Positions 8,919-56,528 of a stretch of 57,147 nt of DNA are shown one piece after another (within the stretch, counting starts at the first letter, position 1; each line of letters begins with the position of its first letter). The stretch lies in the NCBI GenBank assembly GCA_964516315.1, contig CAZEZI010000001.1, forward strand, positions 1 through 57,147, written 5' to 3'. The notes under the pieces were generated by a model that did no database searches, was not told the DNA's origin, and was given only the letters and a program-made list of their open reading frames with translations. Position numbers and translations under genes: made by a program. Source of the stretch: an uncultured Thioalkalispiraceae bacterium (GTDB lineage: Bacteria; Pseudomonadota; Gammaproteobacteria; UBA6429; Thiohalophilaceae).

Positions 8919-10532
8919 ATGGAATTTCTCTTTTTGACGGTGCCCGCCCATCATGCTGCACAGAATGATGCGGTTGAATTAAATACTAAACGGCTGAAAC
9001 AATGGTTAGATGCCTTGCCTGTTATGGATGTTATAAAAACAGTGGAAAGTTTACATGCTGCTATCGAACCATTTAATGAACTCCAGATATCCGATGATGA
9101 GCGTTTAAAGCTGCTTGAGATATATTATGTGGTTATGGATGATATCCTGTTCTCGTATGATGATATGCGAATAACGATGTTACCCATATCGATTGAGGAG
9201 CGACGTAGTCTTAAAAATGATATTATGTGGTTATATCTATCATTGGCAAATGGATATAAGTCAATTGTAAAATCCGGTTTTGATAGTAAATTAAGTTCAG
9301 AGAAGAATACTACTTTACTCGTTAGTATCTATCGAGCAATGGAGCTGATTATTCAGGCGATGTTGTATGCTTTTCGTTCGCATGAAACACCGCCACCACT
9401 TTCTTATCTCGAAATAAACCAGCTTTATATGTATGCCGAGTTTTATCACGTTCTTGATACTAAAATAAAAAATATTAATTCAGGTCATCACTCAACGATT
9501 AATTCACTTTATAAACAAATACTACTTCTGGTTGCATCTGACCCATATAGGGTAAATTCCAATGAGTTAATTGAGATTTACTTTTTCCTTGAGAAATTTG
9601 CAACTTTGTGTGTTATTGAAAAGAGCGTTGATTGCAAAAGTGAAGAAGGCAAATACTTGATTGACCTTATGGAAGACAAGCCCCCACAGTTATATGAATA
9701 TGCAGAAAAGCCGGCAACTTTGTTGTCACATCGTACTATTGATGTATGGCCTGTTGTACAGGCATTTGGTGAAGAACTTTCGGGTGAATATAATCTGGAA
9801 AGCTTTGGAGTAGAAAAATCATCTTCAGGACAATATAGCCTGAGCAGTTCGACTATGGAAAAACGGTTTGTTGAAATTCTCACTCAGCAGTTAATGGGGA
9901 AAATGAGCAGAGAGCATGAACGCCAGCCAGCAATAAGTAAGTGCCATGTTGCTATTGGTTTGTCAGCCATTAATTTTTATTTAATAAATAAAAGCAGGAT
10001 AAAAGAACTAATAGAACCTGAAAAAACAGAGGGAATGACAGTTACCAGTATTGATTTTGAAGAACAGGCTGATTTTTCTCTGGATGTATGGCAGTTACGT
10101 GATAAGTCAGAATCCGGTTGCTCATTAACAATCAAAAAAAATATGCTAACGCAAGAGCTGGTAATTGGAGATGTTGCCGGTATTATTATTAATGATGCTA
10201 AAGGAAAAGCCCACATTCAGATTGTATTTGTGCGATGGGTTAGAGGCGATAATGATACGTTTAAAATGGGTGTGGAATTTATAAAGGGAAATGCAGCACC
10301 TGTAGTTTGCCACTGTGTTGGAGATAGCCAGTCTTACGATGGGCTCTATTTTTCATTTAACGAAGATAAGGGTTTGCAACCCCGTGTTCTTGTTGAAAAT
10401 GGGGTGTTACAACAATCATCAAAAATTAATATGACTTTGAACGGTAAAGTTATTACCATTGAGTGTTCTTCATGTGTAGTTGAAACATCATTGTACTCAC
10501 AATTTAACTACATAAGAGTACGAAACAAGTGA
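8919..10532 (+). CDS. Hypothetical protein with a C-terminal PilZ-like domain (putative c-di-GMP receptor)
   Basis: REHER (aa 331-335, RxxxR) and DKSESG (aa 395-400, DxSxxG) are followed by a beta-rich segment (…VFVRWVRGDNDTFKMGVEF). The spacing between the two motifs (59 aa) is longer than in canonical PilZ. The N-terminal about 320 aa are unassigned. Confidence 0.55.
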   Translation: MEFLFLTVPAHHAAQNDAVELNTKRLKQWLDALPVMDVIKTVESLHAAIEPFNELQISDDERLKLLEIYYVVMDDILFSYDDMRITMLPISIEERRSLKNDIMWLYLSLANGYKSIVKSGFDSKLSSEKNTTLLVSIYRAMELIIQAMLYAFRSHETPPPLSYLEINQLYMYAEFYHVLDTKIKNINSGHHSTINSLYKQILLLVASDPYRVNSNELIEIYFFLEKFATLCVIEKSVDCKSEEGKYLIDLMEDKPPQLYEYAEKPATLLSHRTIDVWPVVQAFGEELSGEYNLESFGVEKSSSGQYSLSSSTMEKRFVEILTQQLMGKMSREHERQPAISKCHVAIGLSAINFYLINKSRIKELIEPEKTEGMTVTSIDFEEQADFSLDVWQLRDKSESGCSLTIKKNMLTQELVIGDVAGIIINDAKGKAHIQIVFVRWVRGDNDTFKMGVEFIKGNAAPVVCHCVGDSQSYDGLYFSFNEDKGLQPRVLVENGVLQQSSKINMTLNGKVITIECSSCVVETSLYSQFNYIRVRNK

Positions 10533-12073
10533 GTGTAGAGAATGCAATAATTATTGATATTGTTAATGCATCAGAAAAATCGTGCTATACAGTTGATATT
10601 ATAGAAAACCTGTTAAAACAGCAGTGTGTATGCGCCAGTTATGGTAGTAAATTTACCGGTCGTCCAGTAACAGAATTAATCTGTAGTGACACTGATCTGA
10701 TTAAAATAAGAGCAGAGTATAGTTTTGCAGAACATGAGGCAAGGCTGTTTATTGAAAAGTCGGTTGAAAAAGAACAGGCATTAAAAATACACCACCCTTT
10801 AAAGACCTGGTTTTTAATCATCGAGAAAAAAGATGGCATGGATGCACGTGTGCGTATTGCTAATATTTCCCCATTATTACAGGCATTGCATCAATCTGAT
10901 GAAATATTAGAAATAAAAAGTAAGCAAGATTATCTTGAACTGGTTATATCAATATTAGATATTTATTTACGCATAGCCCATGAGCATGAGGCAGGGCTGG
11001 ATTTAAGCCTGTCAAATTTTGCAGTGGATAAAGAGAATAATTTATATTATGTCGATGATGAAATCTGCCAATGGGACAAGTTTTCATTCCTGCCTCATTT
11101 TCTGGCAAATTTTATTCGCACACAGGATTGGCTAACAGCAAACTTTGTCACCCTGTTGGGTGAAAGAACAAGAGTGTTGTTACTAAAATATTTTGAGGAT
11201 ACACATTGGTCAACTGTTATTGCAGAAGAACTGCGCGATCTTTTCGTGTCAGACGACAAGGTTCCTTTACGAAAAATATTAATTGATGCACTTTACCATG
11301 GTAGTGTTTTTAATTATCATCCCGCCCATACAGCTAAAATTATTGCATTACTGGCCGACCCTCATGCAAATATTGAAGCATTGGAAACATGCTTAAACTA
11401 TCTTGAAAAAAGAGGCATTGCCGATGCCATTGTTCTGGGTGATATTGTTGGTTATGGTCCACATCCCCATGAGTGTATTGATTTACTACGAGATCGGGAA
11501 CACTTTTCAATTATTCGGGGTAATCATGACCATGCGGTGGTAACTGGGAAAAAAGTTTCAGGTTCAAATTCGCTTGCTGGTTGGACGCTTAACTGGACAC
11601 AGAATAATGTAACTGATGAATACCGGGAATGGCTGGATGGTCTGCCTTCTTATTTGAAGATGGATAACTGGCTGGCAGTACATGGCTCGCCACGTGATAA
11701 AACCTTCTTTAATGGTTATGTGTACCAAATGACATACAAGGAAAACCTGGATGAGTTACAGAAACGGGATATTCCATTGTGTTTTCATGGGCACACTCAT
11801 ATTCAAAAAATATATTATCGTCATAAAGGCAATGATTTAATGACTGAAGATAATACAGAAGTAATTAAATTGTCACAGTATGCATTAATTTGCCCCGGTT
11901 CTATAGGCCAGCCAAGAAATGGTAAAGCCGGAGTGGAGTTTGCAATTATTAATACTGAAACGCTGGAACTTGAATTCCTGCGACTACCTTATAATATAGA
12001 TAAAACGATTGCTGCAATGAATGCACGGCATTTCCCTGCTGCATTAGCTGAGAGACTGTTGCAAGGCAAGTAA
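10529..12073 (+). CDS. Fusion protein: N-terminal protein-kinase-like domain (putative) and C-terminal metallophosphoesterase
   Basis: C-terminal calcineurin-like motifs LADPHAN, GDIVGYG, GNHDH and HGHTH. The N-terminal GLDLSLSNFAVDKENNLYYVDDE gives D158-x4-N163-x12-D176, the same spacing as the eukaryotic-like kinase catalytic loop and DFG Asp. The GTG start overlaps the upstream stop (GTGA). Confidence 0.7.
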   Translation: MSVENAIIIDIVNASEKSCYTVDIIENLLKQQCVCASYGSKFTGRPVTELICSDTDLIKIRAEYSFAEHEARLFIEKSVEKEQALKIHHPLKTWFLIIEKKDGMDARVRIANISPLLQALHQSDEILEIKSKQDYLELVISILDIYLRIAHEHEAGLDLSLSNFAVDKENNLYYVDDEICQWDKFSFLPHFLANFIRTQDWLTANFVTLLGERTRVLLLKYFEDTHWSTVIAEELRDLFVSDDKVPLRKILIDALYHGSVFNYHPAHTAKIIALLADPHANIEALETCLNYLEKRGIADAIVLGDIVGYGPHPHECIDLLRDREHFSIIRGNHDHAVVTGKKVSGSNSLAGWTLNWTQNNVTDEYREWLDGLPSYLKMDNWLAVHGSPRDKTFFNGYVYQMTYKENLDELQKRDIPLCFHGHTHIQKIYYRHKGNDLMTEDNTEVIKLSQYALICPGSIGQPRNGKAGVEFAIINTETLELEFLRLPYNIDKTIAAMNARHFPAALAERLLQGK

Positions 12074-12088
12074 CAGCATTAAATATAA

Positions 12089-12108
12089 AGGGGTAAAAGG
12101 TTACCCCT
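12089..12108. terminator. Bidirectional hairpin between convergent operons
   Basis: AGGGGTAA (12089-12096) pairs with TTACCCCT (12101-12108) around a 4-nt loop, with A/T-rich flanks on both sides. It lies between CDS ends at 12073 (+) and 12136 (-). Confidence 0.6.
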
Positions 12109-12135
12109 GTTCAGGTTGTTACTAAAAAAATAATC

Positions 12136-12543
12136 CTAAGGGCATAAAGGTGCCAAATCATTAATTGCTGCTCTTAAACCTGCCCAGCCCATGCCAAGGT
12201 TTGCGCCTTTGCCGGTTATCAGCACGGCAAGTGCATTGGGCTTGCCCGGAATAACCTGCATAAAATGAAATGTTTTAGGCGTTGTCATCTGAATTTCCAG
12301 CATGGTGTTTTTGACTTCTTCCCCCCTTGACTCTGATAATCTTTTTTCAACCCCGGTTACTCCTCGGCCACGGAACATTTCGACTGCTGCTGCTGCAACC
12401 GCATCAAGATAACTCTGGGTAAAGTAGGGCACGTTATGGTGCACACCTAATAACAGGCCGGTTGAAAGATCGACTACACCGGCTGCCATTGCATCATCGA
12501 CATTATTAATAATTGTTTTACACACTTCATTTATACTGGACAT
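12136..12543 (-). CDS. Roadblock/LC7-like protein (divergent)
   Basis: Size and pattern fit Roadblock (…AAGVVDLSTGLLLG…, C-terminal GKGANLGMGWAGLRAAINDL, parallel to PGANLGMPLAHAKKA of the neighbouring gene). AGGAG lies 7 nt upstream of the ATG. Confidence 0.55.
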   Translation of the reverse strand: MSSINEVCKTIINNVDDAMAAGVVDLSTGLLLGVHHNVPYFTQSYLDAVAAAAVEMFRGRGVTGVEKRLSESRGEEVKNTMLEIQMTTPKTFHFMQVIPGKPNALAVLITGKGANLGMGWAGLRAAINDLAPLCP

Positions 12544-12579
12544 TATATTTCTCCTGTTTAAAAAATTAATAGCACGTGG

Positions 12580-13026
12580 TTAGATAATACTTATGCTGAG
12601 TTTTTCAATTTCTTCTGATGCTTTTTTCGCATGAGCTAATGGCATCCCCAGGTTTGCGCCGGGTTTTGTAAATATAGTTAATAGCAAATTATTTCCGGCA
12701 TGCATCACAAATACATTTCCTTCCGAGCTTTCAATAATGACATTTTTTGTTTTGCCTTTATTTGTTTCGGTGATGAGGTTGTCACTTAATGCCAACAAAG
12801 CACTACTCATTGCAGCAAACCGATGTTGATCCAGTCCTTCATTTAAATACGATGCCCATGCTATGCCATCGCTGCTACTTATCATTGCGCTGGTTATTTC
12901 ATTGCAACCTGATATTAAGTTGCTTAGTATGTAAGTCAGCTTTTTTTGTATTACTCTTGATACATCATTACTGTGTGATGCACTCTCATCACTGACTTTG
13001 TCTATTATTTCACTAATGCTTTCCAT
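12580..13026 (-). CDS. Roadblock/LC7 domain protein (MglB/CvnB-like)
   Basis: ITSAMISSSDGIAWASY…AAMSSALLALSD…VIIESSEGNVFVMHAGNNLLLTIFTKPGANLG is the canonical Roadblock pattern. ATG at 13026 with an AAGGAA RBS. The longer ORF (to 13179) would overlap the GTPase gene. Confidence 0.75.
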   Translation of the reverse strand: MESISEIIDKVSDESASHSNDVSRVIQKKLTYILSNLISGCNEITSAMISSSDGIAWASYLNEGLDQHRFAAMSSALLALSDNLITETNKGKTKNVIIESSEGNVFVMHAGNNLLLTIFTKPGANLGMPLAHAKKASEEIEKLSISII

Positions 13027-13039
13027 TGTTTTTCCTTTT

Positions 13040-13573
13040 CTAGTTTGCAAGAATTGCAAGTAGAGCCTGAATAAGAACCTTGATATCATCTTCCGAACGA
13101 CTATCAATTTCGAAAACAGGAAAAATCTGATTGCGTTCAAAAAGCTTTGCCTGATAGTCTTCAATGCTTGCCTGGTCATTGATGCTGGTTCGGGTTACTC
13201 CGATAACAACACCTGTTTCATTTATAAAATCACTAAAAGAATCAAGGTAAAATTCCATTTGTTTGACTGGATCTGGATGGTCATTGTTAACCAGTAAAAC
13301 CAGTCCCAGTCCACCCCTGGTCAGAATTTTCCACATAAAGTCAAACCGTGTTTGCCCTGGTGTACCGTATAAATGAACTTTTGTACCATCATCCATTTCG
13401 ATGTAACTGTAGTCCATGGCAACGGTTGTTGAATCTTTCAGTTTTCGTTCTTCTCCTGATGTGTCTACATCAGTACTAACGGGTGGTGTGTCACTGATAG
13501 ATGAAATAGCCGTAGTTTTCCCTGCACCAACAGGTCCGGTGAAAATTATTTTATCTGTATTCAGTTGCAGCAT
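13040..13573 (-). CDS. Small Ras-like GTPase, CvnD/COG2229 (MglA-related) family
   Basis: P-loop GPVGAGKTT. Switch regions TTVAMDYSYI and LYGTPGQTRFDFMW closely follow the conservon CvnD pattern (TTVAMDFG…LFGTPGQ.RF.FMW). No clear NKxD; VTRTS occupies the expected place. Confidence 0.8.
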   Translation of the reverse strand: MLQLNTDKIIFTGPVGAGKTTAISSISDTPPVSTDVDTSGEERKLKDSTTVAMDYSYIEMDDGTKVHLYGTPGQTRFDFMWKILTRGGLGLVLLVNNDHPDPVKQMEFYLDSFSDFINETGVVIGVTRTSINDQASIEDYQAKLFERNQIFPVFEIDSRSEDDIKVLIQALLAILAN

Positions 13574-13578
13574 AGCCT

Positions 13579-14565
13579 TTAGCGTATCCCTAAACGTTGT
13601 GCGAGTTTTTTAAGAATAGATTTATGTGGGCTGTTTTTTATTACAGCTGGTTTTGCTGTATCTGGTTTATTCGTTATTGTTTGTATAATATCAACTGCAA
13701 AGGCAGCATTGTAAAAATCTGCAATTTCTTCAAACGGGATCTGGGTTTGTTTGTTAAGTTCGGCCAGGCTTATATATTGTTTTGCCATGATGGCGGCAAG
13801 TTTAAAGTAGTCCGGTTTAAAACCTTGCCTGGAAAAATTTGGCCATGAAGTGAGCTTTACTGGTGTATTTTCTGAATGGCCCGCTAACAGTTTTCCATTT
13901 GAGCATGCCAGGGCACATCGCCAGAGAACACCATTAAGCGCGGCAACAGGCATATTATTGCTACGTTCATTGATTTGTTCAGGGCTTATCTCTTTTATTT
14001 TGATAGTGTTAAAATTTACACCAAGATACTTTTCAATATCATTGGTATTTTTTTCTGTAACAAACAGGTTATTAATACCATCTATATAAATATCCGGTAA
14101 TCCTTCTGACGTTATCAGGCAACATTTATTGCTGAGTTTTGTTTGTAGTAATTGTTGAAAAATATTTTCAGTTTTCAGTGTGCTTAATGGGGGGGTAACT
14201 TTTTTTACTGGTCTCAAGTGACCTTTCTTACTGATTATATAGGCATAAAGTTGTTCACAGATTTTAATTAAAACATTCTTTAACGCAATTACACGTACCG
14301 GTGTTGGCATTGTAATAAGATTTTTTCCACTTTGGGTGGAAGATGAAAACACAATTTTTACCTGGTTCTCACTGGCATTATTGAGTATCTGTGAACCTTC
14401 GGCTGAATCGGCATTCAGAACCAGGATTTCACTGGCAGGATTATCATCAACGATTAAATAGCCCTCTCCTTTTTCATCGCATATAATAGTAACCGCAACA
14501 TCAAGCACCTTTTGCTCAACTTCCTGCAAGTTAACTGCTGAAATATGTAACGCCCCTACATGCAT
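13579..14565 (-). CDS. Hypothetical protein, first gene of the GTPase operon, no recognisable domain
   Basis: 328-aa ORF ending 5 nt upstream of the GTPase gene. Its composition matches the neighbours. I recognise no motif. Confidence 0.6.
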   Translation of the reverse strand: MHVGALHISAVNLQEVEQKVLDVAVTIICDEKGEGYLIVDDNPASEILVLNADSAEGSQILNNASENQVKIVFSSSTQSGKNLITMPTPVRVIALKNVLIKICEQLYAYIISKKGHLRPVKKVTPPLSTLKTENIFQQLLQTKLSNKCCLITSEGLPDIYIDGINNLFVTEKNTNDIEKYLGVNFNTIKIKEISPEQINERSNNMPVAALNGVLWRCALACSNGKLLAGHSENTPVKLTSWPNFSRQGFKPDYFKLAAIMAKQYISLAELNKQTQIPFEEIADFYNAAFAVDIIQTITNKPDTAKPAVIKNSPHKSILKKLAQRLGIR

Positions 14566-14763
14566 TATCTATCCTTAATAAACAGGTATACCTGAAAGGG
14601 TTATATCGGCATGTTGTGTAAGGATATGAATTTATTTTGTGAAGTAGTTCGCAAAATAAACCTGTAGTATTTCACTAAGTTATAGTTGGATTGTAATGCA
14701 CCAAAGAAGGGCGGTGCTTAATTTGAAGAAATTTGTAACATACTTTTTTAACTAGAAAACCTG

Positions 14764-15306
14764 CTACCAGATCAAGTCGTCTGGTATTTGGTAATCGGCG
14801 TACGGATCATTCTCATCGATTTCGGGCTCATTTTTGTCGAATAAAATAACGCGTTTTTCATTCCTCTGGCGGATTTTTTCCGCAACGGGTTTTGGTATGA
14901 GTTCATAGTGGTCATCAAGGTAAGCTATCCCTAATGTCCCGCACATAATTTTCTGCTTCATCTCATCATTGACATAAATACGCTTCACTTTGTTCATATG
15001 TTCAAAGTTGTAAGCAATTTCGCAATCTTGCTGTTGAGTGATGCAATTCCTGGTGATGAGTTGATCAATTTCTGCAGAAACGGCTTTTATTCGGGCAGCG
15101 TCTTCTTTTTTCTTATTTAGTTCCCGATCTCGTTGTGCTTTCTCAAGCGCTACTTGCTGAACTTTTAGTTTGGCTTCATCCGCTGCCACGTCTTTTTTTG
15201 AACGCTGCTGCTTGGTCTGTTTTGTTTTATCTTTTTTTGCATTATGAGCCTGTTGCCTGGAGACAATGCCAGTTTTTAATAGTTGATCTCGAAACGGGTT
15301 ACTCAT
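14764..15306 (-). CDS. DUF2058 (YaiL-like) protein
   Basis: N-terminus MSNPFRDQLLKTGIVSRQQA followed by a Lys/Gln-rich charged segment and a conserved C-terminal domain, as in E. coli YaiL-family proteins. Confidence 0.7.
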   Translation of the reverse strand: MSNPFRDQLLKTGIVSRQQAHNAKKDKTKQTKQQRSKKDVAADEAKLKVQQVALEKAQRDRELNKKKEDAARIKAVSAEIDQLITRNCITQQQDCEIAYNFEHMNKVKRIYVNDEMKQKIMCGTLGIAYLDDHYELIPKPVAEKIRQRNEKRVILFDKNEPEIDENDPYADYQIPDDLIW

Positions 15307-15693
15307 GGTTTTTTATCTCGGTTTATTCGAGGGATTTGGCCTGTGTGTCAGTAAGGAATGCACTGGTTTATATTATTTTTTCATAAAAAAGTCTTAAATT
15401 CTGCCGTGAATTCAAATATAAACAATCTGTTATCGATACATTGGCTTTTTACGTTCCATACATGCTTCAGGCTGATTCTATCGACTTAGTCTTAGCCTGT
15501 CATACAAAGTATATTTGAACTCCGGTTATATGTAAAAGACTTGTATTGTTATTGGTTAATATTCAAGGTGTTATTAAAGTCTGACTCCAGTCGCCGTCTG
15601 TTATGGCGTTGAAGGATGTAACAATCGGTATTGTTGTCTTTTAGCATCTGAATAGCGTACAACAATACAGATTAGCAAATATTTAGTTAGGCA

Positions 15694-16698
15694 TTATGAT
15701 GTCGGTCTTGATGGTGTGGTTGTCGTTACTAAACACTGCGCGGCTTCAGTAATATCCTTGAGCTGTGGAATACTGGTGGCTTCCAGCCCCACATTAAAGG
15801 GGGTTGGCATTTCCAGTCCGGCTATGCGTGTGGGCGGGGCGTCCAGATCATAGAAACAAAGTTCATTTAGTGTCGCGATGATCTCGGCACCAGCGCCTGC
15901 AAACCTGCAATCTTCTTCAATGACCAGTAAACGGTGTGTTTTGCGTAATGATGCAGCACAGGTATCCCAGTCGATGGGGCTGAGGCTGCGAAGATCAATC
16001 ACTTCAGCTGCTATGTTTTGTTCTGTCAGCTTGTTCGCAGCAGCGACAGCCAGATTTGCCATGCGTGAATAGCTAATCATAGTCAGGTCAGTTCCGCTGC
16101 GACGGATCAATGCCTGATGTATGGCGGGTGGCTCGGCCGTAAAGTTGACTTCAGCTTTTTCGAAATATAGTAATTCGTGCTCCAGTACAATGATCGGGTC
16201 GTCACTGGCAATGGCCTGGCGTAGTTGCCAGTACGCATCCTGCGATGTGGCAGGCACCACGATGCGCAGCCCGGGAACATTCATGAGGGTGTGCTCCAGA
16301 CGCTGTGAGTGCTGGGCGGCCAGCTGCTTCGCCACGCCGCCGGGCATGCGTATCACCAGTGGCATGGGGAACTGGCCGCCGGACATGAAGGGGATCTTGG
16401 CCGCCATATTGATGATGGCATCCAGTGCCAGTAAGGCAAAGTTTACAGTCATGATCTCAACTACCGGGCGCATACCGGTCAACGCGGCACCGACACCCAG
16501 CCCGGTAAAACCACCTTCCGAGATGGGTGTATCGCGGACGCGCCATTCCCCGTATTTCGCAAACAACCCTTCGGTGACCCGGTAGGCTCCACCATACAGA
16601 CCGACATCCTCGCCGAGTATAAACACGGATTCATCACGCGCCATTTCAATGTCGAGTGCTCGGTTTAATGCCTGCCAGAACAACAGTTTCTCAGTCAT
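15694..16698 (-). CDS. 2-oxoacid (pyruvate/acetoin-type) dehydrogenase E1 component, beta subunit
   Basis: Transketolase-like pyrimidine-binding and C-terminal domains (…ILGEDVGLYGGAYRVTEGL…DTPISEGGFTG…). The ATG overlaps the E1 alpha stop by 8 nt (ATGACTGA). Confidence 0.9.
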   Translation of the reverse strand: MTEKLLFWQALNRALDIEMARDESVFILGEDVGLYGGAYRVTEGLFAKYGEWRVRDTPISEGGFTGLGVGAALTGMRPVVEIMTVNFALLALDAIINMAAKIPFMSGGQFPMPLVIRMPGGVAKQLAAQHSQRLEHTLMNVPGLRIVVPATSQDAYWQLRQAIASDDPIIVLEHELLYFEKAEVNFTAEPPAIHQALIRRSGTDLTMISYSRMANLAVAAANKLTEQNIAAEVIDLRSLSPIDWDTCAASLRKTHRLLVIEEDCRFAGAGAEIIATLNELCFYDLDAPPTRIAGLEMPTPFNVGLEATSIPQLKDITEAAQCLVTTTTPSRPTS

Positions 16699-51341: not shown

Positions 51342-53909
51342 ATGTCTAAGAAAAAAAATATTGATCCACACGCGGAGCGTGAAGCCCGAAAATACGCACA
51401 ACCCATTGCCAGCCGTGAGCTTATTATGGAATATCTTGAGTCGGTGGGGGCTCCTTTAAACCGCGACCAGATTGCAGCACATTTTGACCTTGTCGATGAT
51501 GACAACTATTTTGCCTTAAAAAAACGTTTACGCGCGATGGAGCGAGATGGGCAGATTATCTACACCCGCAAAGGCGGCTATGGTCTGGCGCATAAGATGG
51601 ACCTGGTGTGTGGTCGGGTGCAAGGGCATCCCGATGGCTTTGGGTTCCTGATCCCAGACGATAATAGCGACGATCTGTTTTTAGCGCCACGTGATATGCG
51701 CGAAGTTTTTCATGGTGATCGGGTTATGGCGCGGGTTGCTGGCGAAGATCGGCGTGGCCGTCGTATGGGGCGTATTGTTGAAGTGCTTGAACGCGCACAC
51801 GAATGCATGGTTGGGCGCTTCTTTGTGGAGCACGGTATTGCGTTTGTTGTCGTGGATAATAAACGCATTACTCAGGATATTATGGTTGCGGCTGAAGATT
51901 TTAATGGTGCAACGCACGGGCAAATTGTTTCACTGGAAATTATTCAGCAGCCCACCAAACGCCATCAGGCGCTGGGTCGGGTTAAAGAAGTTCTGGGCGA
52001 ACATATGGCGCCAGGGCTGGAAATTGATATTGCGATCCGTTCACATGACTTACCTCATCACTGGAATAAAAAGGTTATCGCTGAAGCTGAAAATTTGCCC
52101 GATGAAGTATTACCTGGTGAAATAGAAGGTCGCGTTGATATTCGTGACTTACCTTTAGTCACCATCGATGGTGAAGACGCTCGTGATTTTGATGATGCGG
52201 TTTACTGCGAACCGAACTCAAATGGCTGGCGCTTAATTGTTGCTATCGCTGATGTGTCTAGCTATGTTCAACCGGATGCACCTCTTGATTTAGAAGCACA
52301 AAATCGCGCAACTTCCGTTTATTTTCCTGAACGTGTTATTCCGATGTTACCCGAAGCCTTATCCAATGGCTTATGCTCACTTAACCCTAAAGTGAATCGC
52401 TTGTGTATGGTTTGTGATATGCAAATCAGCAAACAAGGGACCTTAAAAGATTATAAGTTTTATCAATCTGTTATGTATTCGTATGCACGCTTAACATATA
52501 CCCAGGTAGGCGCAATGCTTGAACAACAGGACAAAGCATTACGAACTGAACATAGTAAACTGCTGCCGCATTTAGAAAACCTTTATGCTATGTATAAAGC
52601 CATGCGTGCGCAACGCACCAAACGTGGTGCCATTGACTTTGAAACAACCGAAGTCAGAATTGTGTTTGGCAGTGAACGTAAGATAGACAAAATTGTTCCC
52701 GTTTACCGTAATGACGCACATAAAATAATTGAAGAATGTATGATTACCGCAAACGTTGCGACAGCACGTTTTTTATTAAAAAATAATATACCTGCTTTAT
52801 ACCGGATTCATGAAGGCCCTACCATTGAAAAACTGGAAGACTTGCGTAAGTTTTTATCCGAGTTTGGCTTACAAGTGCCAGGTGGTGAAAAGCCAACCGC
52901 AAAAGATTATGCACATCTGGTTAATCAGATAAAAGAGCGCCCGGATTTTAATTTAATTCAAACTGTTTTACTACGTAGCCTGCGTCAGGCGGTGTACAGT
53001 CCCGATAATATAGGCCATTTTGGTTTAGCCTATGATGCCTATGCGCATTTTACTTCACCTATTCGCCGCTATCCTGATTTACTCGTACATCGCGCCATTA
53101 AGCATGTATTAAGCAAGCAATCCGTTGCAAGCTATAAGTATGACCACAAAGATATGGTGCACTTTGGTGATATCTGCTCGCAAAATGAACGCCGTGCAGA
53201 CGAGGCCACACGTGATGTTAACGACTGGCTTAAATGCGAGTTTATGCTGGATAAAGTCGGCAATGAATACCCCGGTAAAATTACAACCGTGACCGGCTTT
53301 GGTTTGTTTGTTGAACTGAATGATATTTTTGTGGAAGGGCTGGTACATGTGACCAGTCTGGATAATGATTATTATCATTTTGATCCGGTTAAACATCGGC
53401 TCGTTGGTGAAAACAGCCATAAAATATATGGTTTGGGCAATGATATTACCATTCGTGTTGCACGCGTGGATCTTGATGAACGTAAAATTGATTTTGATCT
53501 GGTTTTAAGTAATACAGACAGAAAAGCTGCAGGTAAGCCAAAATCAAAAAGTAACAAACGCAAAGAGAATAAGTCTGGTAATAAAAAATCCGGGCGTAAA
53601 AAACCACGTCGTATATCTGCTGGTAACCCCTCTTCTGGAAAAAGAAATAAGCAAGCTGTGGCTGACAAGGATATTTCAAAGTCAGGTAATCAATCTGCTG
53701 GCAATAAAAAATCAAACAACAAAAAAACGACTAAAAAGAAAGTTGTAAAAAAAGCAGCATCAAAGAAAAAATCATCTAAAAAGAAAGTTGCAAAAAAGAA
53801 AATTGTGAAGAAAAAAACAGCCAAAAAGAAAGTGGCCAAAAAATCCACGGTGAAGAAAAAAGTTGCATCCAGAAAAAAGGTGGCTTCTAAAAAGAAAGCA
53901 AAGAAATGA
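51342..53909 (+). CDS. rnr: Ribonuclease R with an extended Lys-rich C-terminal tail
   Basis: An N-terminal HTH/cold-shock-like region, an RNB catalytic domain (…TIDGEDARDFDDAV…HFGL…YAHFTSPIRRYPDL…), an S1 domain, and a basic tail of about 130 aa. Confidence 0.95.
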   Translation: MSKKKNIDPHAEREARKYAQPIASRELIMEYLESVGAPLNRDQIAAHFDLVDDDNYFALKKRLRAMERDGQIIYTRKGGYGLAHKMDLVCGRVQGHPDGFGFLIPDDNSDDLFLAPRDMREVFHGDRVMARVAGEDRRGRRMGRIVEVLERAHECMVGRFFVEHGIAFVVVDNKRITQDIMVAAEDFNGATHGQIVSLEIIQQPTKRHQALGRVKEVLGEHMAPGLEIDIAIRSHDLPHHWNKKVIAEAENLPDEVLPGEIEGRVDIRDLPLVTIDGEDARDFDDAVYCEPNSNGWRLIVAIADVSSYVQPDAPLDLEAQNRATSVYFPERVIPMLPEALSNGLCSLNPKVNRLCMVCDMQISKQGTLKDYKFYQSVMYSYARLTYTQVGAMLEQQDKALRTEHSKLLPHLENLYAMYKAMRAQRTKRGAIDFETTEVRIVFGSERKIDKIVPVYRNDAHKIIEECMITANVATARFLLKNNIPALYRIHEGPTIEKLEDLRKFLSEFGLQVPGGEKPTAKDYAHLVNQIKERPDFNLIQTVLLRSLRQAVYSPDNIGHFGLAYDAYAHFTSPIRRYPDLLVHRAIKHVLSKQSVASYKYDHKDMVHFGDICSQNERRADEATRDVNDWLKCEFMLDKVGNEYPGKITTVTGFGLFVELNDIFVEGLVHVTSLDNDYYHFDPVKHRLVGENSHKIYGLGNDITIRVARVDLDERKIDFDLVLSNTDRKAAGKPKSKSNKRKENKSGNKKSGRKKPRRISAGNPSSGKRNKQAVADKDISKSGNQSAGNKKSNNKKTTKKKVVKKAASKKKSSKKKVAKKKIVKKKTAKKKVAKKSTVKKKVASRKKVASKKKAKK

Positions 53910-55619: not shown

Positions 55620-56528
55620 ATGCAGGCGATTGCAGCCTTTGTATTGCGTGGACGCAATCAAGCTATTTTAAGTACCGTTGGCTTTGCCGCGTTGGCGTTA
55701 ATGTTTACGCCACTGGGGCTATTCAGTGCAGCATCCATTGGTCTGGTTACCCTGGTGCACGGTGCAAAGCAGGGCTTCACGATTGTGGTTATTGCCTCTA
55801 TTTTTATGCTGGCGATTTCCAGTTTTACCGGCCAGGTGGCATTAGGCATTGAGTACGTTGTTTTTTACTGGTTACCTGTGTGGTTTCTGGCGCTATTACT
55901 GGCTCGTCAGGTTTCACTGTCACTGGTTGTGCTTTTTGCAGCGTTAATTGGACTGGTTGCGGCTGTCGTAATGGCAACACTTTATGTTACCTACGAAGCA
56001 CAGTGGAACAAGATTATTCTGGACAATTTATTGCCTGCTTTTAAAGACGCAAAAATGGATTTGTCTGAAGAAGAGCTGAAGACCTTTATACTTAACATCG
56101 GCAAGATGGTGGTTAATTATGGTGCAGCTTACTGGGTGTTAAGTATGTCTGCCAGTTTGTTTCTGGCGCGTTGGTGGCAAGCACTGCTTTTTCATCCCGG
56201 TGGGTTTGGAGAAGAGTTCAGAGAATTACGCTTTGGTGTGAGTGCGGCTATCGGTGCGATGTTGATAATTGCTGTTGCTATTGTTGTCAGTGATGGATTG
56301 CTTAACCAGATTCTTATGGGCAGTGTTGGCGTTGTAGTGCTGCTTTTTGTGTTACAGGGTTTGGCTATTGCACACACTGTTGCTGTTGCACGTAAGCTAA
56401 AAACAGTGTGGTTGTACCTGTTGTATTTATTAATGATAGTGTTAATGCCATATGAATTGTTTTTAATCGCCTTTATTGGTCTAAGTGACAATTGGGCAAA
56501 TTACCGGGCACGTATAAAGCCGGTGTAA
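55620..56528 (+). CDS. Polytopic membrane protein (DUF2232/YybS-like) between rpsR and rplI
   Basis: Eight or more hydrophobic helices. This position is conserved in several gammaproteobacteria, which carry a membrane protein here. Confidence 0.6.
   Translation: MQAIAAFVLRGRNQAILSTVGFAALALMFTPLGLFSAASIGLVTLVHGAKQGFTIVVIASIFMLAISSFTGQVALGIEYVVFYWLPVWFLALLLARQVSLSLVVLFAALIGLVAAVVMATLYVTYEAQWNKIILDNLLPAFKDAKMDLSEEELKTFILNIGKMVVNYGAAYWVLSMSASLFLARWWQALLFHPGGFGEEFRELRFGVSAAIGAMLIIAVAIVVSDGLLNQILMGSVGVVVLLFVLQGLAIAHTVAVARKLKTVWLYLLYLLMIVLMPYELFLIAFIGLSDNWANYRARIKPV

What the first reader, a model, noticed from the sequence alone, without database searches (positions are those of the whole stretch)
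8919..14565. Convergent signalling locus: PilZ-like protein and kinase-like/phosphoesterase fusion facing an orphan protein / CvnD-type GTPase / two Roadblock proteins (candidate undescribed system)
Seen in sequence: two tightly packed operons converge on one shared hairpin at 12089-12108. The plus-strand pair has a GTGA start/stop overlap at 10529-10532. The minus-strand four genes are separated by gaps of only 5, 13 and 36 nt. The six genes combine four kinds of switch parts. These are a possible c-di-GMP receptor (RxxxR…DxSxxG), a kinase-like domain fused to a metallophosphoesterase, a P-loop small GTPase, and two Roadblock/LC7 proteins. About 650 aa have no recognisable domain (the whole 328-aa protein and the first about 320 aa of the 537-aa protein).

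Established knowledge: Roadblock/LC7 proteins are the GAP/GEF-type partners of MglA-like GTPases, and they are the CvnB component of actinobacterial conservons. From memory (to be verified), a PilZ-like protein has been linked to MglA-dependent polarity in Myxococcus.

Inference: the locus could be one integrated second-messenger / phosphorylation / GTPase switch, of a composition I do not recognise as described.
Basis: partly seen in the sequence, partly recalled or inferred. Interest (0 to 1): 0.7.

Follow-up and report, generated by a model that had tools for sequence, protein, structure and literature searches.

The report
MglA-type GTPase module with kinase-phosphatase partner
Six neighbouring genes form a conserved bacterial switch: a small Ras-like GTPase with its Roadblock regulators, joined to a kinase-like/phosphatase fusion enzyme and a FimW-type c-di-GMP sensor; the GTPase core was already catalogued, but its link to the other two genes appears undescribed and points to control of type IV pili or cell polarity.

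Summary
All six ORFs, the GTGA overlap, the 5/13/36-nt gaps and the 12089-12108 hairpin are as described.

- The minus-strand operon is not new. It matches the "Group 3 MglA system" of Wuichet & Søgaard-Andersen 2014 (DUF>MglA>MglB>MglB). The "orphan" is that system's DUF. The GTPase has G3 GTPGQ, no Arg finger, a G4 without Lys and a DSR G5.
- The 135-aa protein is a divergent but very conserved Roadblock-like protein.
- The 537-aa protein belongs to the FimW family (Pfam FimW_N) and keeps RxxxR/DxSxxG.
- The 514-aa protein is a protein-kinase-like fold fused to a PPP/ApaH-like metallophosphoesterase. The N-domain family has only 225 representative clusters, and nearly all full-length members are this same fusion.

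What appears new is the linkage. The fusion gene lies next to the 135-aa gene in 44 of 60 metagenomic loci, in either orientation, across Gamma- and Zetaproteobacteria, Nitrospira and Polyangiaceae. FimW-like genes also join the GTPase operon without the fusion, three times beside a pilGHIJ/chpA-like cluster. In other loci a tandem globin takes FimW's place.

Best reading: one sensor–kinase/phosphatase–GTPase switch, probably for type IV pili or polarity. Function is untested.

The parts
8919..10532 (+). FimW-family protein (537 aa). It has an N-terminal FimW_N domain (about residues 1-260) and a C-terminal PilZ-like region carrying RxxxR (R331-R335) and DxSxxG (D395-G400). It is a putative c-di-GMP sensor.
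   Evidence: Precomputed Pfam PF27104 FimW_N hit. PilZ E 0.0098, below the gathering score. Motifs seen in alignment A6 and by regex; both motifs occur in 8 of 19 family members.
10529..11314 (+). N-terminal protein-kinase-like (PKL) domain of the 514-aa fusion protein (residues 1-262). Invariant residues are K59, E82, D158-x4-N163 and D176-D177.
   Evidence: Alignments A1 and A5. AF2 model with pLDDT 90.2. BFVD Foldseek gives hits to viral Ser/Thr, APH-like and RIO-like kinases (E 1.6e-4 to 6e-3). No Pfam or PDB sequence hit. The family has only 225 representative clusters, and nearly all full-length members carry the same MPE fusion.
11315..12073 (+). C-terminal metallophosphoesterase domain of the same protein. 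It is of the PPP/ApaH/SapH-like type, with all metal-binding motifs conserved (D277xH279, GD305, GNH333D334, H385, GH422xH424).
   Evidence: Pfam Metallophos_2 3e-14. PDB profile hit to 3rqz at 1e-50, and to SapH, Ap4A hydrolase and lambda phosphatase. Foldseek PDB hits to 3rqz at 4e-20 and to PP1/PP2A/calcineurin at 1e-7.
12089..12108 (.). G+C-rich hairpin between the two convergent stop codons. It is a candidate bidirectional terminator.
12136..12543 (-). p135: a divergent, very highly conserved Roadblock-like protein (second 'MglB', MglC-like). It is the gene most constantly adjacent to the kinase-like/phosphoesterase fusion (Kin-MPE), and it ends in an invariant Cys-Pro.
   Evidence: 52-85% identity across Gamma- and Zetaproteobacteria. 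Hit by a Roadblock HMM built without p135 sequences, E 1e-9 to 1e-15. hhalign against the Roadblock profile: E 3.5e-4, probability 37%. Best PDB hit is MglC 7ct3 at E 0.04. No Pfam hit.
12580..13026 (-). Roadblock/LC7 protein (148 aa), an MglB/CvnB-like regulator with the conserved D53-G54 pair.
   Evidence: Pfam Robl_LC7 3.6e-12. PDB profile hits to 9jue at 9e-19, CvnB5 3leq at 2e-11, LAMTOR2 at 3e-6 and MglB at 5e-4. Alignment A4.
13040..13573 (-). MglA-family small GTPase (177 aa) of Group 2/3 type. Motifs: G1 GPVGAGKT, G2 TT, G3 GTPGQ, G4 NNDH (no Lys), G5 DSR.
   Evidence: Pfam ATP_bind_1 5.6e-10 and Ras 2.3e-5; NCBIfam small_GTP 5e-9. Motifs read from the sequence and compared with PMC4316618. 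4770 homologues.
13579..14565 (-). The 'DUF' protein of Group 3 MglA systems (328 aa). It has a conserved N-terminal region, a variable linker (about residues 112-133), a confidently modelled middle/C-terminal domain (130-298), a disordered basic stretch, and a conserved C-terminal cationic amphipathic helix (KSILKKLAQRLGI).
   Evidence: No Pfam, NCBIfam or PDB hit. Only 18 word-sharing homologues. Alignment A2. AF2 model with no Foldseek match. Tail motif conserved in 56 divergent homologues, with median hydrophobic moment 0.59 and net charge +4. Architecture matches the DUF described in PMC4316618.

Best explanation
The locus is one functional signalling cluster built around a Group 3 MglA-type small-GTPase module. 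That module consists of a DUF scaffold protein, an MglA-like GTPase, an MglB-like Roadblock protein and a second, highly conserved Roadblock-like protein (p135).

Two further genes are genomically coupled to it. One is a dedicated two-domain enzyme: a protein-kinase-like domain fused to a PPP/ApaH-like metallophosphoesterase (called Kin-MPE here). The other, present in this lineage, is a FimW-family PilZ-type protein translationally coupled to Kin-MPE.

Proposed working, all inferred:
- The GTPase cycles between GTP and GDP states under control of the Roadblock pair, which act as GAP and scaffold as MglB/MglC do.
- The DUF protein recruits or tethers the module through its C-terminal cationic amphipathic helix. 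That helix binds either the membrane or a Roadblock dimer.
- Kin-MPE adds and removes a phosphate on a module component. p135 is the best candidate, because it is Kin-MPE's most constant neighbour.
- The sensor encoded just upstream of Kin-MPE sets that enzyme's kinase/phosphatase balance. Here the sensor is FimW-like (c-di-GMP); in other genomes it is a tandem globin.
- The most likely output is polar or surface behaviour, with type IV pilus assembly or localisation the best guess.

Shown: gene content, domain identities and conserved linkage. Inferred: every interaction, the substrate and the output.
For: Identity of the GTPase operon:
- The order DUF>MglA>MglB>MglB and a 177-aa GTPase match the Group 3 entries for Neisseria, Acidithiobacillus, Methylomicrobium and Methylomonas.
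- The GTPase motifs GTPGQ, TT, a G4 without Lys and a DSR G5 match the description.
- The Roadblock D-G pair is present.

Linkage:
- Kin-MPE sits beside the module in L004, L008, L010-L013, L015-L018, L021, L024-L025 and L027-L030. These come from Chromatiales, Methylomicrobium lacus, Thiohalorhabdus, Woeseiaceae, Thiotrichaceae, Nitrospira, Marinobacterium, Pseudomonadales, Zetaproteobacteria and Polyangiaceae.
- In a p135-centred metagenome sample, Kin-MPE is the next gene in 44 of 60 loci with at least 700 nt downstream, and in 29 of 38 loci with at least 2.5 kb. Of the 44, 31 are convergent and 13 co-directional, mostly with gaps of 17-215 nt.
- Seventeen contig lengths are shared between the top-120 lists for Kin-MPE and the GTPase.
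- FimW-like genes join the GTPase operon with Kin-MPE in 10 of 16 convergent loci. They also do so without Kin-MPE in L093, L094 and L175.
- A tandem globin occupies FimW's slot in L177 and lies adjacent in 7 other loci.

Enzyme:
- AF2 model pLDDT is 90.2.
- The MPE domain resembles 3rqz, SapH and PPP phosphatases.
- The N-domain matches viral protein kinases in BFVD, and the K/E/DxxxxN/DD residues are invariant.
- The N-domain is almost never found without the MPE domain.

Type IV pilus hint:
- L093, L094 and L175 place the module divergently next to a REC-REC-CheW-MCP-ChpA-like cluster. L175 adds a 109-aa PilZ gene.
- FimW is a c-di-GMP-dependent polar pilus regulator of unknown mechanism in P. 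aeruginosa.
- MglA controls type IV pili in Myxococcus.

Tail: a conserved cationic amphipathic C-terminus is present in the DUF protein and its homologues.
Against: - There is no experimental evidence for any component.
- The PKL assignment rests on a predicted structure and on Foldseek E-values of only 1e-4 to 1e-2. No sequence profile links the domain to any kinase family.
- The MPE domain's nearest solved relatives include Ap4A and other nucleotide hydrolases, so the substrate may be a small molecule.
- The PilZ hit is below Pfam's threshold. Only 8 of 19 family members keep both c-di-GMP motifs, and the spacing here (about 60 aa) is unusually long.
- The pil-chp adjacency is seen in only 3 loci, none of which carries Kin-MPE. 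No pilus gene is in this window.
- Sixteen of 60 p135 loci lack Kin-MPE next door. Some Thiomargarita Kin-MPE loci show no GTPase partner within 10 kb (L019, L022).
- The p135-centred sample is biased towards relatives of loci that already carried Kin-MPE.
- The REC-like fold reported for the DUF N-terminus was not reproduced (hhalign probability 1.5%; low pLDDT).
Confidence: 0.55

Rival explanations
1. Second-messenger metabolism rather than protein phosphorylation. In this reading Kin-MPE is a nucleotide enzyme: the MPE domain hydrolyses Ap4A, a cyclic or linear dinucleotide, or a guanine nucleotide, and the PKL domain is a small-molecule kinase or a nucleotide-binding sensor. It would tune the nucleotide pool seen by the FimW-like receptor and/or the GTPase.
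For: - Among solved structures, the nearest relative with an assigned activity is SapH, an Ap4A hydrolase/phosphodiesterase. A trypanosome Ap4A hydrolase and YfcE-type phosphodiesterases also match; closer matches (3rqz, 1nnw, 2gju) have no assigned function.
- NCBIfam gives weak phosphodiesterase hits.
- The best kinase-fold hits include APH-like (small-molecule kinase-like) proteins.
- Kin-MPE is translationally coupled to a putative c-di-GMP receptor.
Against: - The same fold searches give PP1, PP2A, calcineurin and lambda phosphatase at probability 1.00.
- The tight and near-exclusive adjacency to the Roadblock-like p135, even where FimW is absent, fits a protein partner better.
- A tandem globin can replace FimW, so c-di-GMP is not a constant of the system.
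Confidence: 0.25
2. Transcriptional output, as proposed in 2014 for Group 3 systems. The DUF protein would be a receiver-like / winged-helix DNA-binding regulator whose activity is gated by the GTPase. Kin-MPE and FimW would then be upstream inputs to gene regulation rather than to a polar machine.
For: - The Phyre2-based proposal in PMC4316618.
- The AF2 secondary structure of residues 251-296 (three helices followed by a strand) is compatible with a winged helix.
Against: - No Pfam, PDB or Foldseek support for either fold.
- hhalign against receiver domains gives probability 1.5%.
- A conserved C-terminal cationic amphipathic helix after a disordered linker is more typical of membrane or partner tethering than of DNA binding.
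Confidence: 0.12
3. The two operons are functionally independent, and their adjacency reflects only inherited synteny in one lineage.
For: - In the window they are on opposite strands and separated by a terminator-like hairpin.
- Some loci carry one half without the other (L019, L022, L093, L094).
Against: - The linkage persists where the DUF protein is only 37-40% identical.
- It persists across classes and phyla, and in both convergent and co-directional arrangements with operon-like gaps.
Confidence: 0.04
4. An anti-phage defence or other mobile accessory system.
For: - A very weak NCBIfam hit to an anti-phage phosphoesterase (E 0.063).
- The flanking genes vary between loci.
Against: - No PADLOC hit for any of the six proteins.
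- No mobile-element genes nearby.
- The composition matches the local 37-40% GC backbone.
- The pattern looks vertical within Gammaproteobacteria, with housekeeping neighbours.
Confidence: 0.02

Closest known systems
Group 3 MglA/MglB systems (Wuichet & Søgaard-Andersen 2014, PMC4316618; Snodgrassella mgl operon, PMC11112851)
   Same: - Same gene order DUF>MglA>MglB>MglB and a GTPase of about 178 aa.
- Same GTPase motifs: GTPGQ in G3, TT in G2, G4 lacking Lys and a DAR-like G5.
- Same Roadblock D-G pair.
- Same DUF layout, with conserved ends and a variable linker.
- Same beta/gammaproteobacterial range.
- Methylococcales loci of the same type as L010 are listed in the paper's table.
   Different: Neither paper's text as searched, nor the held supplement of the first, mentions a metallophosphoesterase, a kinase-like protein, PilZ or FimW in the neighbourhood. 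Here those two genes are conserved partners. Placement of this GTPase inside the Group 3 clade by phylogeny was not done.
Myxococcus xanthus polarity module (MglA, MglB, MglC, RomR/RomX, RomY)
   Same: - A small GTPase with two Roadblock proteins; the second is best matched by MglC.
- A scaffold protein built as N-domain, disordered linker and charged C-terminal helix, like RomR.
- An output that includes type IV pili.
   Different: - MglA of Myxococcus is Group 1, with an intrinsic Arg finger and TVPGQ; this GTPase is not.
- The DUF protein shows no detectable homology to RomR, and its tail is basic rather than acidic.
- There are no RomX or RomY homologues here, and no Kin-MPE in the Myxococcus module.
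- The MasK tyrosine kinase-MglA link is recalled from memory only.
Actinobacterial conservon (CvnA-CvnB-CvnC-CvnD)
   Same: - A GTPase that hits Pfam ATP_bind_1, as CvnD does.
- A Roadblock protein that matches CvnB5 (3leq, 2e-11).
- A four-gene operon coupled to an ATP-using signalling enzyme.
   Different: - No CvnA-type membrane histidine kinase and no DUF742 (CvnC) in the operon.
- Different gene order.
- Found in Proteobacteria, not Actinobacteria.
- The ATP-using partner is a PKL-MPE fusion.
Pseudomonas aeruginosa FimW (PA4958)
   Same: - FimW_N domain (precomputed Pfam).
- A C-terminal PilZ-like region with c-di-GMP motifs.
- Association with type IV pilus regulatory genes in some relatives.
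   Different: - In P. aeruginosa fimW is encoded with fimX, and no GTPase partner is reported.
- Here it is translationally coupled to Kin-MPE and converges on an MglA module.
- Direct sequence comparison with PA4958 was not possible.
- c-di-GMP binding is untested.
Eukaryotic Roadblock scaffolds (MP1-p14 / LAMTOR2-3 of Ragulator)
   Same: Roadblock heterodimers that both regulate small GTPases (Rag) and scaffold protein kinases (MEK1/ERK). The 148-aa protein matches LAMTOR2 at 3e-6 and hits Pfam MAPKK1_Int weakly.
   Different: The resemblance is by analogy only. Partners differ, the setting is not lysosomal, and there is no evidence that the bacterial pair forms a heterodimer.
Stand-alone bacterial MPE phosphatases/hydrolases (3rqz, SapH, PrpE/ApaH, lambda PP)
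   Same: Same catalytic domain and the full set of metal ligands.
   Different: None of these carries the N-terminal PKL domain. That domain is essentially restricted to this fusion.

Membership tests
Group 3 MglA system | MglA-family GTPase with GTPGQ in G3 and Thr instead of the intrinsic Arg finger in G2 | tested here: met
   The sequence shows ...KDSTTVAMDY... and ...LYGTPGQTRF..., which meet the criteria quoted.
Group 3 MglA system | G4 deviating from [NT]KxD (no Lys) and a DAR-type G5 | tested here: met
   G4 reads LLVNNDHPD (no Lys). G5 reads EIDSRS (DSR for DAR). Both read from the translation.
Group 3 MglA system | Gene order DUF > MglA > one or two MglB (Roadblock) genes | tested here: met
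   Searches give the gene order and domains. The second Roadblock is shown. The same order is listed in Table S2.
Group 3 MglA system | DUF protein with conserved N- and C-terminal regions separated by a variable linker and with no Pfam match | tested here: met
   Alignment A2 and no Pfam or NCBIfam hit. The reported REC-like and wHTH-like folds were not reproduced.
Group 3 MglA system | Placement of the GTPase in the Group 3 clade of an MglA phylogeny | not tested
Actinobacterial conservon | CvnA sensor histidine kinase and CvnC (DUF742) in the operon | tested here: not met
   Neither HATPase nor DUF742 hits any of the four minus-strand proteins. The hybrid kinase at 5571-8705 lies upstream of the plus-strand gene pair and is conserved only in close relatives.
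FimW family | FimW_N domain | tested here: met
   Unmarked precomputed Pfam PF27104 hit (E <= 1e-5) on this protein and its homologues. The model is absent from the local Pfam copy.
FimW family / PilZ domain | PilZ domain passing Pfam's threshold, with RxxxR and D/NxSxxG | tested here: inconclusive
   PilZ scores 16.7 bits against a gathering score of 22.5. Both motifs are present but about 60 aa apart. One homologue hits FimW_C weakly.
FimW family / PilZ domain | c-di-GMP binding and c-di-GMP-dependent polar localisation | not testable with these tools
   Requires biochemistry and microscopy.
Protein-kinase-like (PKL) superfamily | Bilobal PKL fold | tested here: met
   The AF2 model (pLDDT 90.2) matches viral Ser/Thr, APH-like and RIO-like kinases in BFVD at probability 0.9-1.0 and E 1.6e-4 to 6e-3. 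The order of secondary-structure elements fits.
Protein-kinase-like (PKL) superfamily | Catalytic Lys, alphaC Glu, DxxxxN catalytic loop and a DFG-equivalent Asp | tested here: inconclusive
   K59, E82, D158-x4-N163 and D176-D177 are invariant in 20 sequences. Their equivalence to kinase catalytic residues is inferred from position, not from a structural superposition.
Protein-kinase-like (PKL) superfamily | Sequence-profile membership in a described kinase family | tested here: not met
   No Pfam hit among 15 members at E <= 10. No PDB kinase at E <= 10.
Calcineurin-like metallophosphoesterases (PPP/ApaH branch) | Pfam Metallophos match and the complete metal-ligand motifs | tested here: met
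Roadblock/LC7 (for the 135-aa protein) | Pfam Robl_LC7 match | tested here: not met
   There is no Pfam hit. Homology is supported only by a family-specific HMM (1e-9 to 1e-15), hhalign (E 3.5e-4, probability 37%) and MglC at E 0.04. The protein therefore works like, and is probably derived from, a Roadblock protein, but direct membership is unproven.

The most novel reading that the evidence does not exclude
A widespread, so far unrecognised bacterial signalling device in which a dedicated protein-kinase-like/PPP-phosphatase fusion enzyme reversibly phosphorylates a Roadblock-type regulator (p135) of an MglA-family GTPase. A swappable sensor subunit would control the enzyme: FimW-type for c-di-GMP, or tandem globin for O2/NO. 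This would give a prokaryotic counterpart of kinase-scaffolding Roadblock/Ragulator complexes. It would also supply the missing downstream pathway through which FimW-type c-di-GMP receptors position or activate type IV pili.
Probability: 0.25. Interest if true: 0.8.

Novelty: new variant of a known kind. Interest (0 to 1): 0.6.

Why it matters
Group 3 MglA systems occur in many Beta- and Gammaproteobacteria, including Neisseria, Xanthomonas, Stenotrophomonas, Acinetobacter and methanotrophs. Their function is still unknown.

FimW is a c-di-GMP receptor needed for normal type IV piliation in Pseudomonas aeruginosa, and its mechanism is explicitly described as unknown.

The conserved linkage found here ties these two open problems together and adds a new enzyme: a kinase-like domain found essentially only in fusion with a phosphatase domain. 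This turns a vague question about what these GTPases do into concrete tests. Does Kin-MPE phosphorylate the conserved Roadblock-like protein? Does c-di-GMP-bound FimW switch it? Does the module place or activate pili?

It also extends the parallel between bacterial and eukaryotic Roadblock/GTPase/kinase scaffolds.

Tried and rejected
- Conservon (CvnA-D) label: rejected, because there is no CvnA or CvnC.
- Defence system: rejected, with no PADLOC hits.
- Riboswitch or other RNA element in the 213-nt leader or elsewhere in 8400-15800: none found.
- Fold assignment of the DUF protein: AF2 gave pLDDT 68.9 with a poor N-terminus, and Foldseek against PDB found nothing below E 0.1. A PDB profile search was empty.
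- REC-likeness of the DUF N-terminus: hhalign against receiver domains gave probability 1.5%, so the published Phyre2 call was not reproduced.
- Sequence-level kinase assignment of the N-domain: Pfam and PDB profile searches were empty. In the PDB Foldseek output the top 50 hits were all MPE-domain matches. Only the BFVD search exposed the kinase hits.
- Hanks-kinase motif scan of the loci, to build a comparison profile: only two kinases found, so it was abandoned.
- Type IV pilus link through Marinobacterium: the shared MCP lies 7 kb away among unrelated genes, so it was rejected as evidence.
- Neighbourhood clustering: three apparently frequent 'families' were antisense shadow ORFs of p135 and GTPase genes and were discarded.
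- Locus-tag literature search for Group 3 genes found nothing functional. A 'Group 3' literature search after 2015 was empty.
- The PlpA/PilZ/MglA literature check failed twice through time-outs.

Full report
**1. The observation**

All six ORFs are present at the stated coordinates. The FimW-like gene's stop codon and the next gene's GTG start share GTGA at 10529-10532.

On the minus strand, the gaps between the genes are 5, 13 and 36 nt. The last two contain AAGGA and AGGAG ribosome-binding sites. The mechanical ORF 12580-13179 overlaps the GTPase gene. The real Roadblock gene starts at the ATG at 13026, giving 148 aa as in all homologues.

Between the two convergent stop codons lies an 8-bp stem, 4-nt loop hairpin at 12089-12108. 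The terminator scan is only slightly enriched overall (9 found against 5.3 expected). The hairpin's position, not the statistic, makes it a plausible bidirectional terminator. No Rfam element occurs in 8400-15800.

**2. What the six proteins are**

*GTPase (13040-13573, minus strand).*
- It hits Pfam ATP_bind_1 and Ras, and NCBIfam small_GTP.
- Its motifs are G1 GPVGAGKT, G2 TT, G3 GTPGQ, G4 NNDH (no Lys) and G5 DSR.
- Wuichet & Søgaard-Andersen give the G2 and G3 features for MglA Groups 2-5 and the G4 and G5 deviations for Groups 2 and 3.

*Roadblock protein (148 aa).*
- It is a clear Roadblock/LC7 protein (Pfam 3.6e-12).
- Its profile hits PDB entries 9jue at 9e-19, CvnB5 at 2e-11, LAMTOR2 at 3e-6 and MglB at 5e-4.
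- It carries the conserved D-G pair.

*p135 (135 aa).*
- It has no Pfam hit.
- A Roadblock HMM built only from 148-aa-type sequences finds it at E 1e-9 to 1e-15.
- hhalign aligns 115 columns at E 3.5e-4, though with probability only 37%.
- Its best PDB hit is MglC at E 0.04.
- I therefore treat it as a divergent Roadblock-like protein.
- It is strikingly conserved (52-85% identity from Gamma- to Zetaproteobacteria) and ends in an invariant Cys-Pro.

*The 328-aa 'orphan'.*
- It has no Pfam, NCBIfam or PDB match and only 18 word-sharing homologues.
- Its conserved ends and variable linker match the 'DUF' that the 2014 paper describes as the first gene of Group 3 MglA systems.
- That paper's supplementary table lists DUF>MglA>MglB>MglB with a 178-aa MglA for Neisseria, Acidithiobacillus, Teredinibacter, Methylomicrobium alcaliphilum and Methylomonas methanica.
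- The minus-strand operon is therefore a member of an already catalogued, functionally uncharacterised class.
- A 2024 Snodgrassella study adds only indirect evidence for a role in colonisation.

New details on the DUF protein:
- AF2 models residues 130-298 confidently but the N-terminus poorly.
- Foldseek finds no PDB relative.
- The published receiver-like assignment was not reproduced.
- Fifty-six divergent homologues share a C-terminal cationic amphipathic helix after a disordered stretch. Examples are KSILKKLAQRLGI, RRGLLARLAQRLGL and SGLFGRIRARLG. The median hydrophobic moment is 0.59, at the 96th percentile within each protein, and the net charge is +4.
- From memory, this tail resembles the MinD membrane-targeting helix.
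- By analogy with RomR's C-terminal helix, which docks on MglC, it could instead bind a Roadblock dimer.

*FimW-like protein (537 aa).*
- It carries Pfam FimW_N in the precomputed annotation.
- It has a sub-threshold PilZ hit.
- It has RxxxR (R331-R335) and DxSxxG (D395-G400), about 60 aa apart.
- Only 8 of 19 non-redundant family members keep both motifs.
- FimW of P. aeruginosa binds c-di-GMP, moves to the poles and promotes type IV piliation by an unknown mechanism.

*Kin-MPE (514 aa).*
- AF2 models it with pLDDT 90.2.
- Residues from about 265 to 514 form a metallophosphoesterase with all metal ligands conserved.
- This domain is closest to 3rqz, then to SapH and Ap4A hydrolases, then to PPP Ser/Thr phosphatases.
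- Residues 1-262 have no Pfam or PDB sequence match.
- In the viral structure library, however, the model matches many protein kinases. These include two Marseillevirus kinases (1.6e-4 and 4.8e-4), an APH-like kinase (6.7e-4) and a RIO-like kinase (5.5e-3).
- Residues K59, E82, D158-x4-N163 and D176-D177 are invariant and lie where a kinase's catalytic residues would lie.
- An exhaustive profile search finds only 225 representative clusters in 1.84 billion proteins. Nearly all are 500-540 aa, and the longer ones tested carry the same MPE domain.
- This is a small, self-contained kinase-like/phosphatase fusion family.

**3. Are the genes linked?**

Yes. Starting from the DUF protein, the GTPase and Kin-MPE, look-ups recovered the full six-gene set in three kinds of locus: relatives whose DUF is 81% identical (L004), relatives whose DUF is only 38% identical (L008), and further MAGs (L012, L013, L176).

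Kin-MPE sits beside the module without FimW in these loci:
- Thiohalorhabdus (convergent).
- Methylomicrobium lacus (all on one strand).
- Woeseiaceae, Thiotrichaceae, Pseudomonadales, Nitrospira, Zetaproteobacteria and Polyangiaceae.

A p135-centred metagenome scan gave these counts:
- Kin-MPE is the next gene in 44 of 60 loci with at least 700 nt downstream, and in 29 of 38 loci with at least 2.5 kb.
- Of those 44, 31 are convergent and 13 co-directional.
- A Roadblock gene lies upstream in 43 of 55 loci, the GTPase in 42 of 55, and the DUF in 34 of 45.
- A FimW-like gene follows convergent Kin-MPE in 10 of 16 loci.

Seventeen contig lengths are shared between the top-120 lists for Kin-MPE and the GTPase.

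Caveat: the p135 query alignment was built from loci that already carried Kin-MPE, so the 73% figure is an upper-biased estimate. Sixteen loci lack Kin-MPE. Two Thiomargarita Kin-MPE loci show no partner within 10 kb.

Two further patterns are informative:
- FimW-like genes converge on the GTPase operon without Kin-MPE in L093, L094 and L175. In all three, the operon is divergently adjacent to a REC-REC-CheW-MCP-ChpA-like cluster of pilGHIJ/chpA type. L175 also has a 109-aa PilZ gene.
- In L177 a tandem-globin protein sits exactly where FimW sits here. The same globin family is adjacent in seven other loci. The gene upstream of Kin-MPE thus looks like a swappable sensor.

**4. Mechanism**

Shown: the domain identities and the conserved linkage.

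Inferred:
- The Roadblock pair regulates the GTPase cycle.
- The DUF protein tethers the module through its tail.
- Kin-MPE writes and erases a phosphate on a module protein. p135 is the best candidate because it is the constant neighbour, even in Marinobacterium loci that lack the GTPase.
- The FimW-like protein conveys c-di-GMP.
- The output is polar or surface behaviour, most likely type IV pili.

The main rival is that Kin-MPE acts on nucleotides rather than proteins, given its SapH/Ap4A-hydrolase relatives. The 2014 proposal of a transcriptional output is not excluded. Chance adjacency and a defence role are effectively excluded.

**5. Comparison and novelty**

The GTPase core is a known kind, a Group 3 MglA system. 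The conservon label fails because there is no CvnA or CvnC.

I found no mention of a phosphoesterase, kinase-like protein, PilZ or FimW as partners of these systems. This covers the main text and held supplement of the 2014 paper, the 2024 paper as searched, and targeted literature searches. The library searched is incomplete, so absence is not proof.

I rate the finding a new variant of a known kind: a Group 3 MglA module extended by a family-specific kinase-like/phosphatase enzyme and a FimW-type or globin sensor.

**6. Context**

The cluster lies in a 37-40% GC stretch. At about 15.6-15.7 kb the contig jumps to 50-56% GC for about 35 kb of central-carbon genes, then returns to about 40%. 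No pilus genes are in the window.

The nearest relatives are uncultured Gammaproteobacteria from hydrothermal-vent and other, largely unnamed, metagenome samples. The closest genome in the species-level collection scanned is a Chromatiales MAG whose Kin-MPE is 64% identical; closer uncultured assemblies exist (L004, about 83%).

Noticed in passing
window 15600-51000: There is a sharp compositional boundary at about 15.6-15.7 kb. The contig goes from 37-40% GC to 50-56% GC for about 35 kb, then returns to about 40% at the RNase R gene (51342-53909). The high-GC block encodes central-carbon enzymes: PDH E1 alpha/beta, class I aldolase, dihydrolipoamide dehydrogenase, phosphoketolase, acetate kinase, isoamylase, glycogen phosphorylase, PEP synthase/PPDK and enolase. 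It could be a horizontally acquired metabolic island or an assembly chimera.
   Followed up: partly
L177:12064-13104; L017:11565-12479; L128:8990-9901; L021/L127:9880-10869; L115, L130, L148: A tandem-globin protein (about 300-346 aa; Pfam Globin plus Bac_globin) is repeatedly adjacent to Kin-MPE or p135. In L177 it occupies exactly the slot held by the FimW-like gene in the window. This suggests interchangeable sensor subunits.
   Followed up: partly
L016:5812-9908; also L021/L127, L030, L120, L139, L155: Some loci hold a second, paralogous set next to Kin-MPE. It comprises an extra p135-like protein, a GTPase of about 550 aa (Pfam Arf/SRPRB/Ras hits) and an ABC-type ATPase fused to a dual-specificity (CX5R) protein phosphatase. 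This is another GTPase/Roadblock/phosphatase combination.
   Followed up: partly
L064:9992-11913: In a Cytophagia MAG, a stand-alone 242-aa metallophosphoesterase is followed directly by a Roadblock protein and a small GTPase. The MPE-Roadblock-GTPase association therefore also exists without the kinase-like domain, and outside Proteobacteria.
   Followed up: no
L024:8288-11644; L025:8357-11653: The Marinobacterium loci have DUF, p135 and Kin-MPE in one direction, but no MglA-like GTPase and no 148-aa Roadblock gene in between. p135 and the DUF protein may therefore work with Kin-MPE independently of the GTPase.
   Followed up: no
window 12136-12543 (C-terminus at 12139-12144): p135 ends in an invariant ...L-C-P in 11 of 12 diverse homologues and has an invariant HNVPYFTxSY stretch. 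The terminal Cys-Pro is unexplained.
   Followed up: no
window 5012-8705: A MerR-HTH/receiver protein (190 aa) and a 1044-aa hybrid histidine kinase (SBP_bac_3-PAS-GAF-HisKA-HATPase-REC) lie directly upstream of the FimW-like gene. They are conserved there only in the closest relatives (L001-L004, L095, L096), not in more distant six-gene loci.
   Followed up: partly
window 1879-4154 and 55620-56528: ORFs of 581 aa, 183 aa and 302 aa have no Pfam match at E <= 1e-4.
   Followed up: no
L019, L022 (Thiomargarita MAGs): Full-length Kin-MPE genes with 10-kb flanks show none of the other five families nearby. The partner genes may lie elsewhere in these large, rearranged genomes, or Kin-MPE may have another role there.
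   Followed up: no
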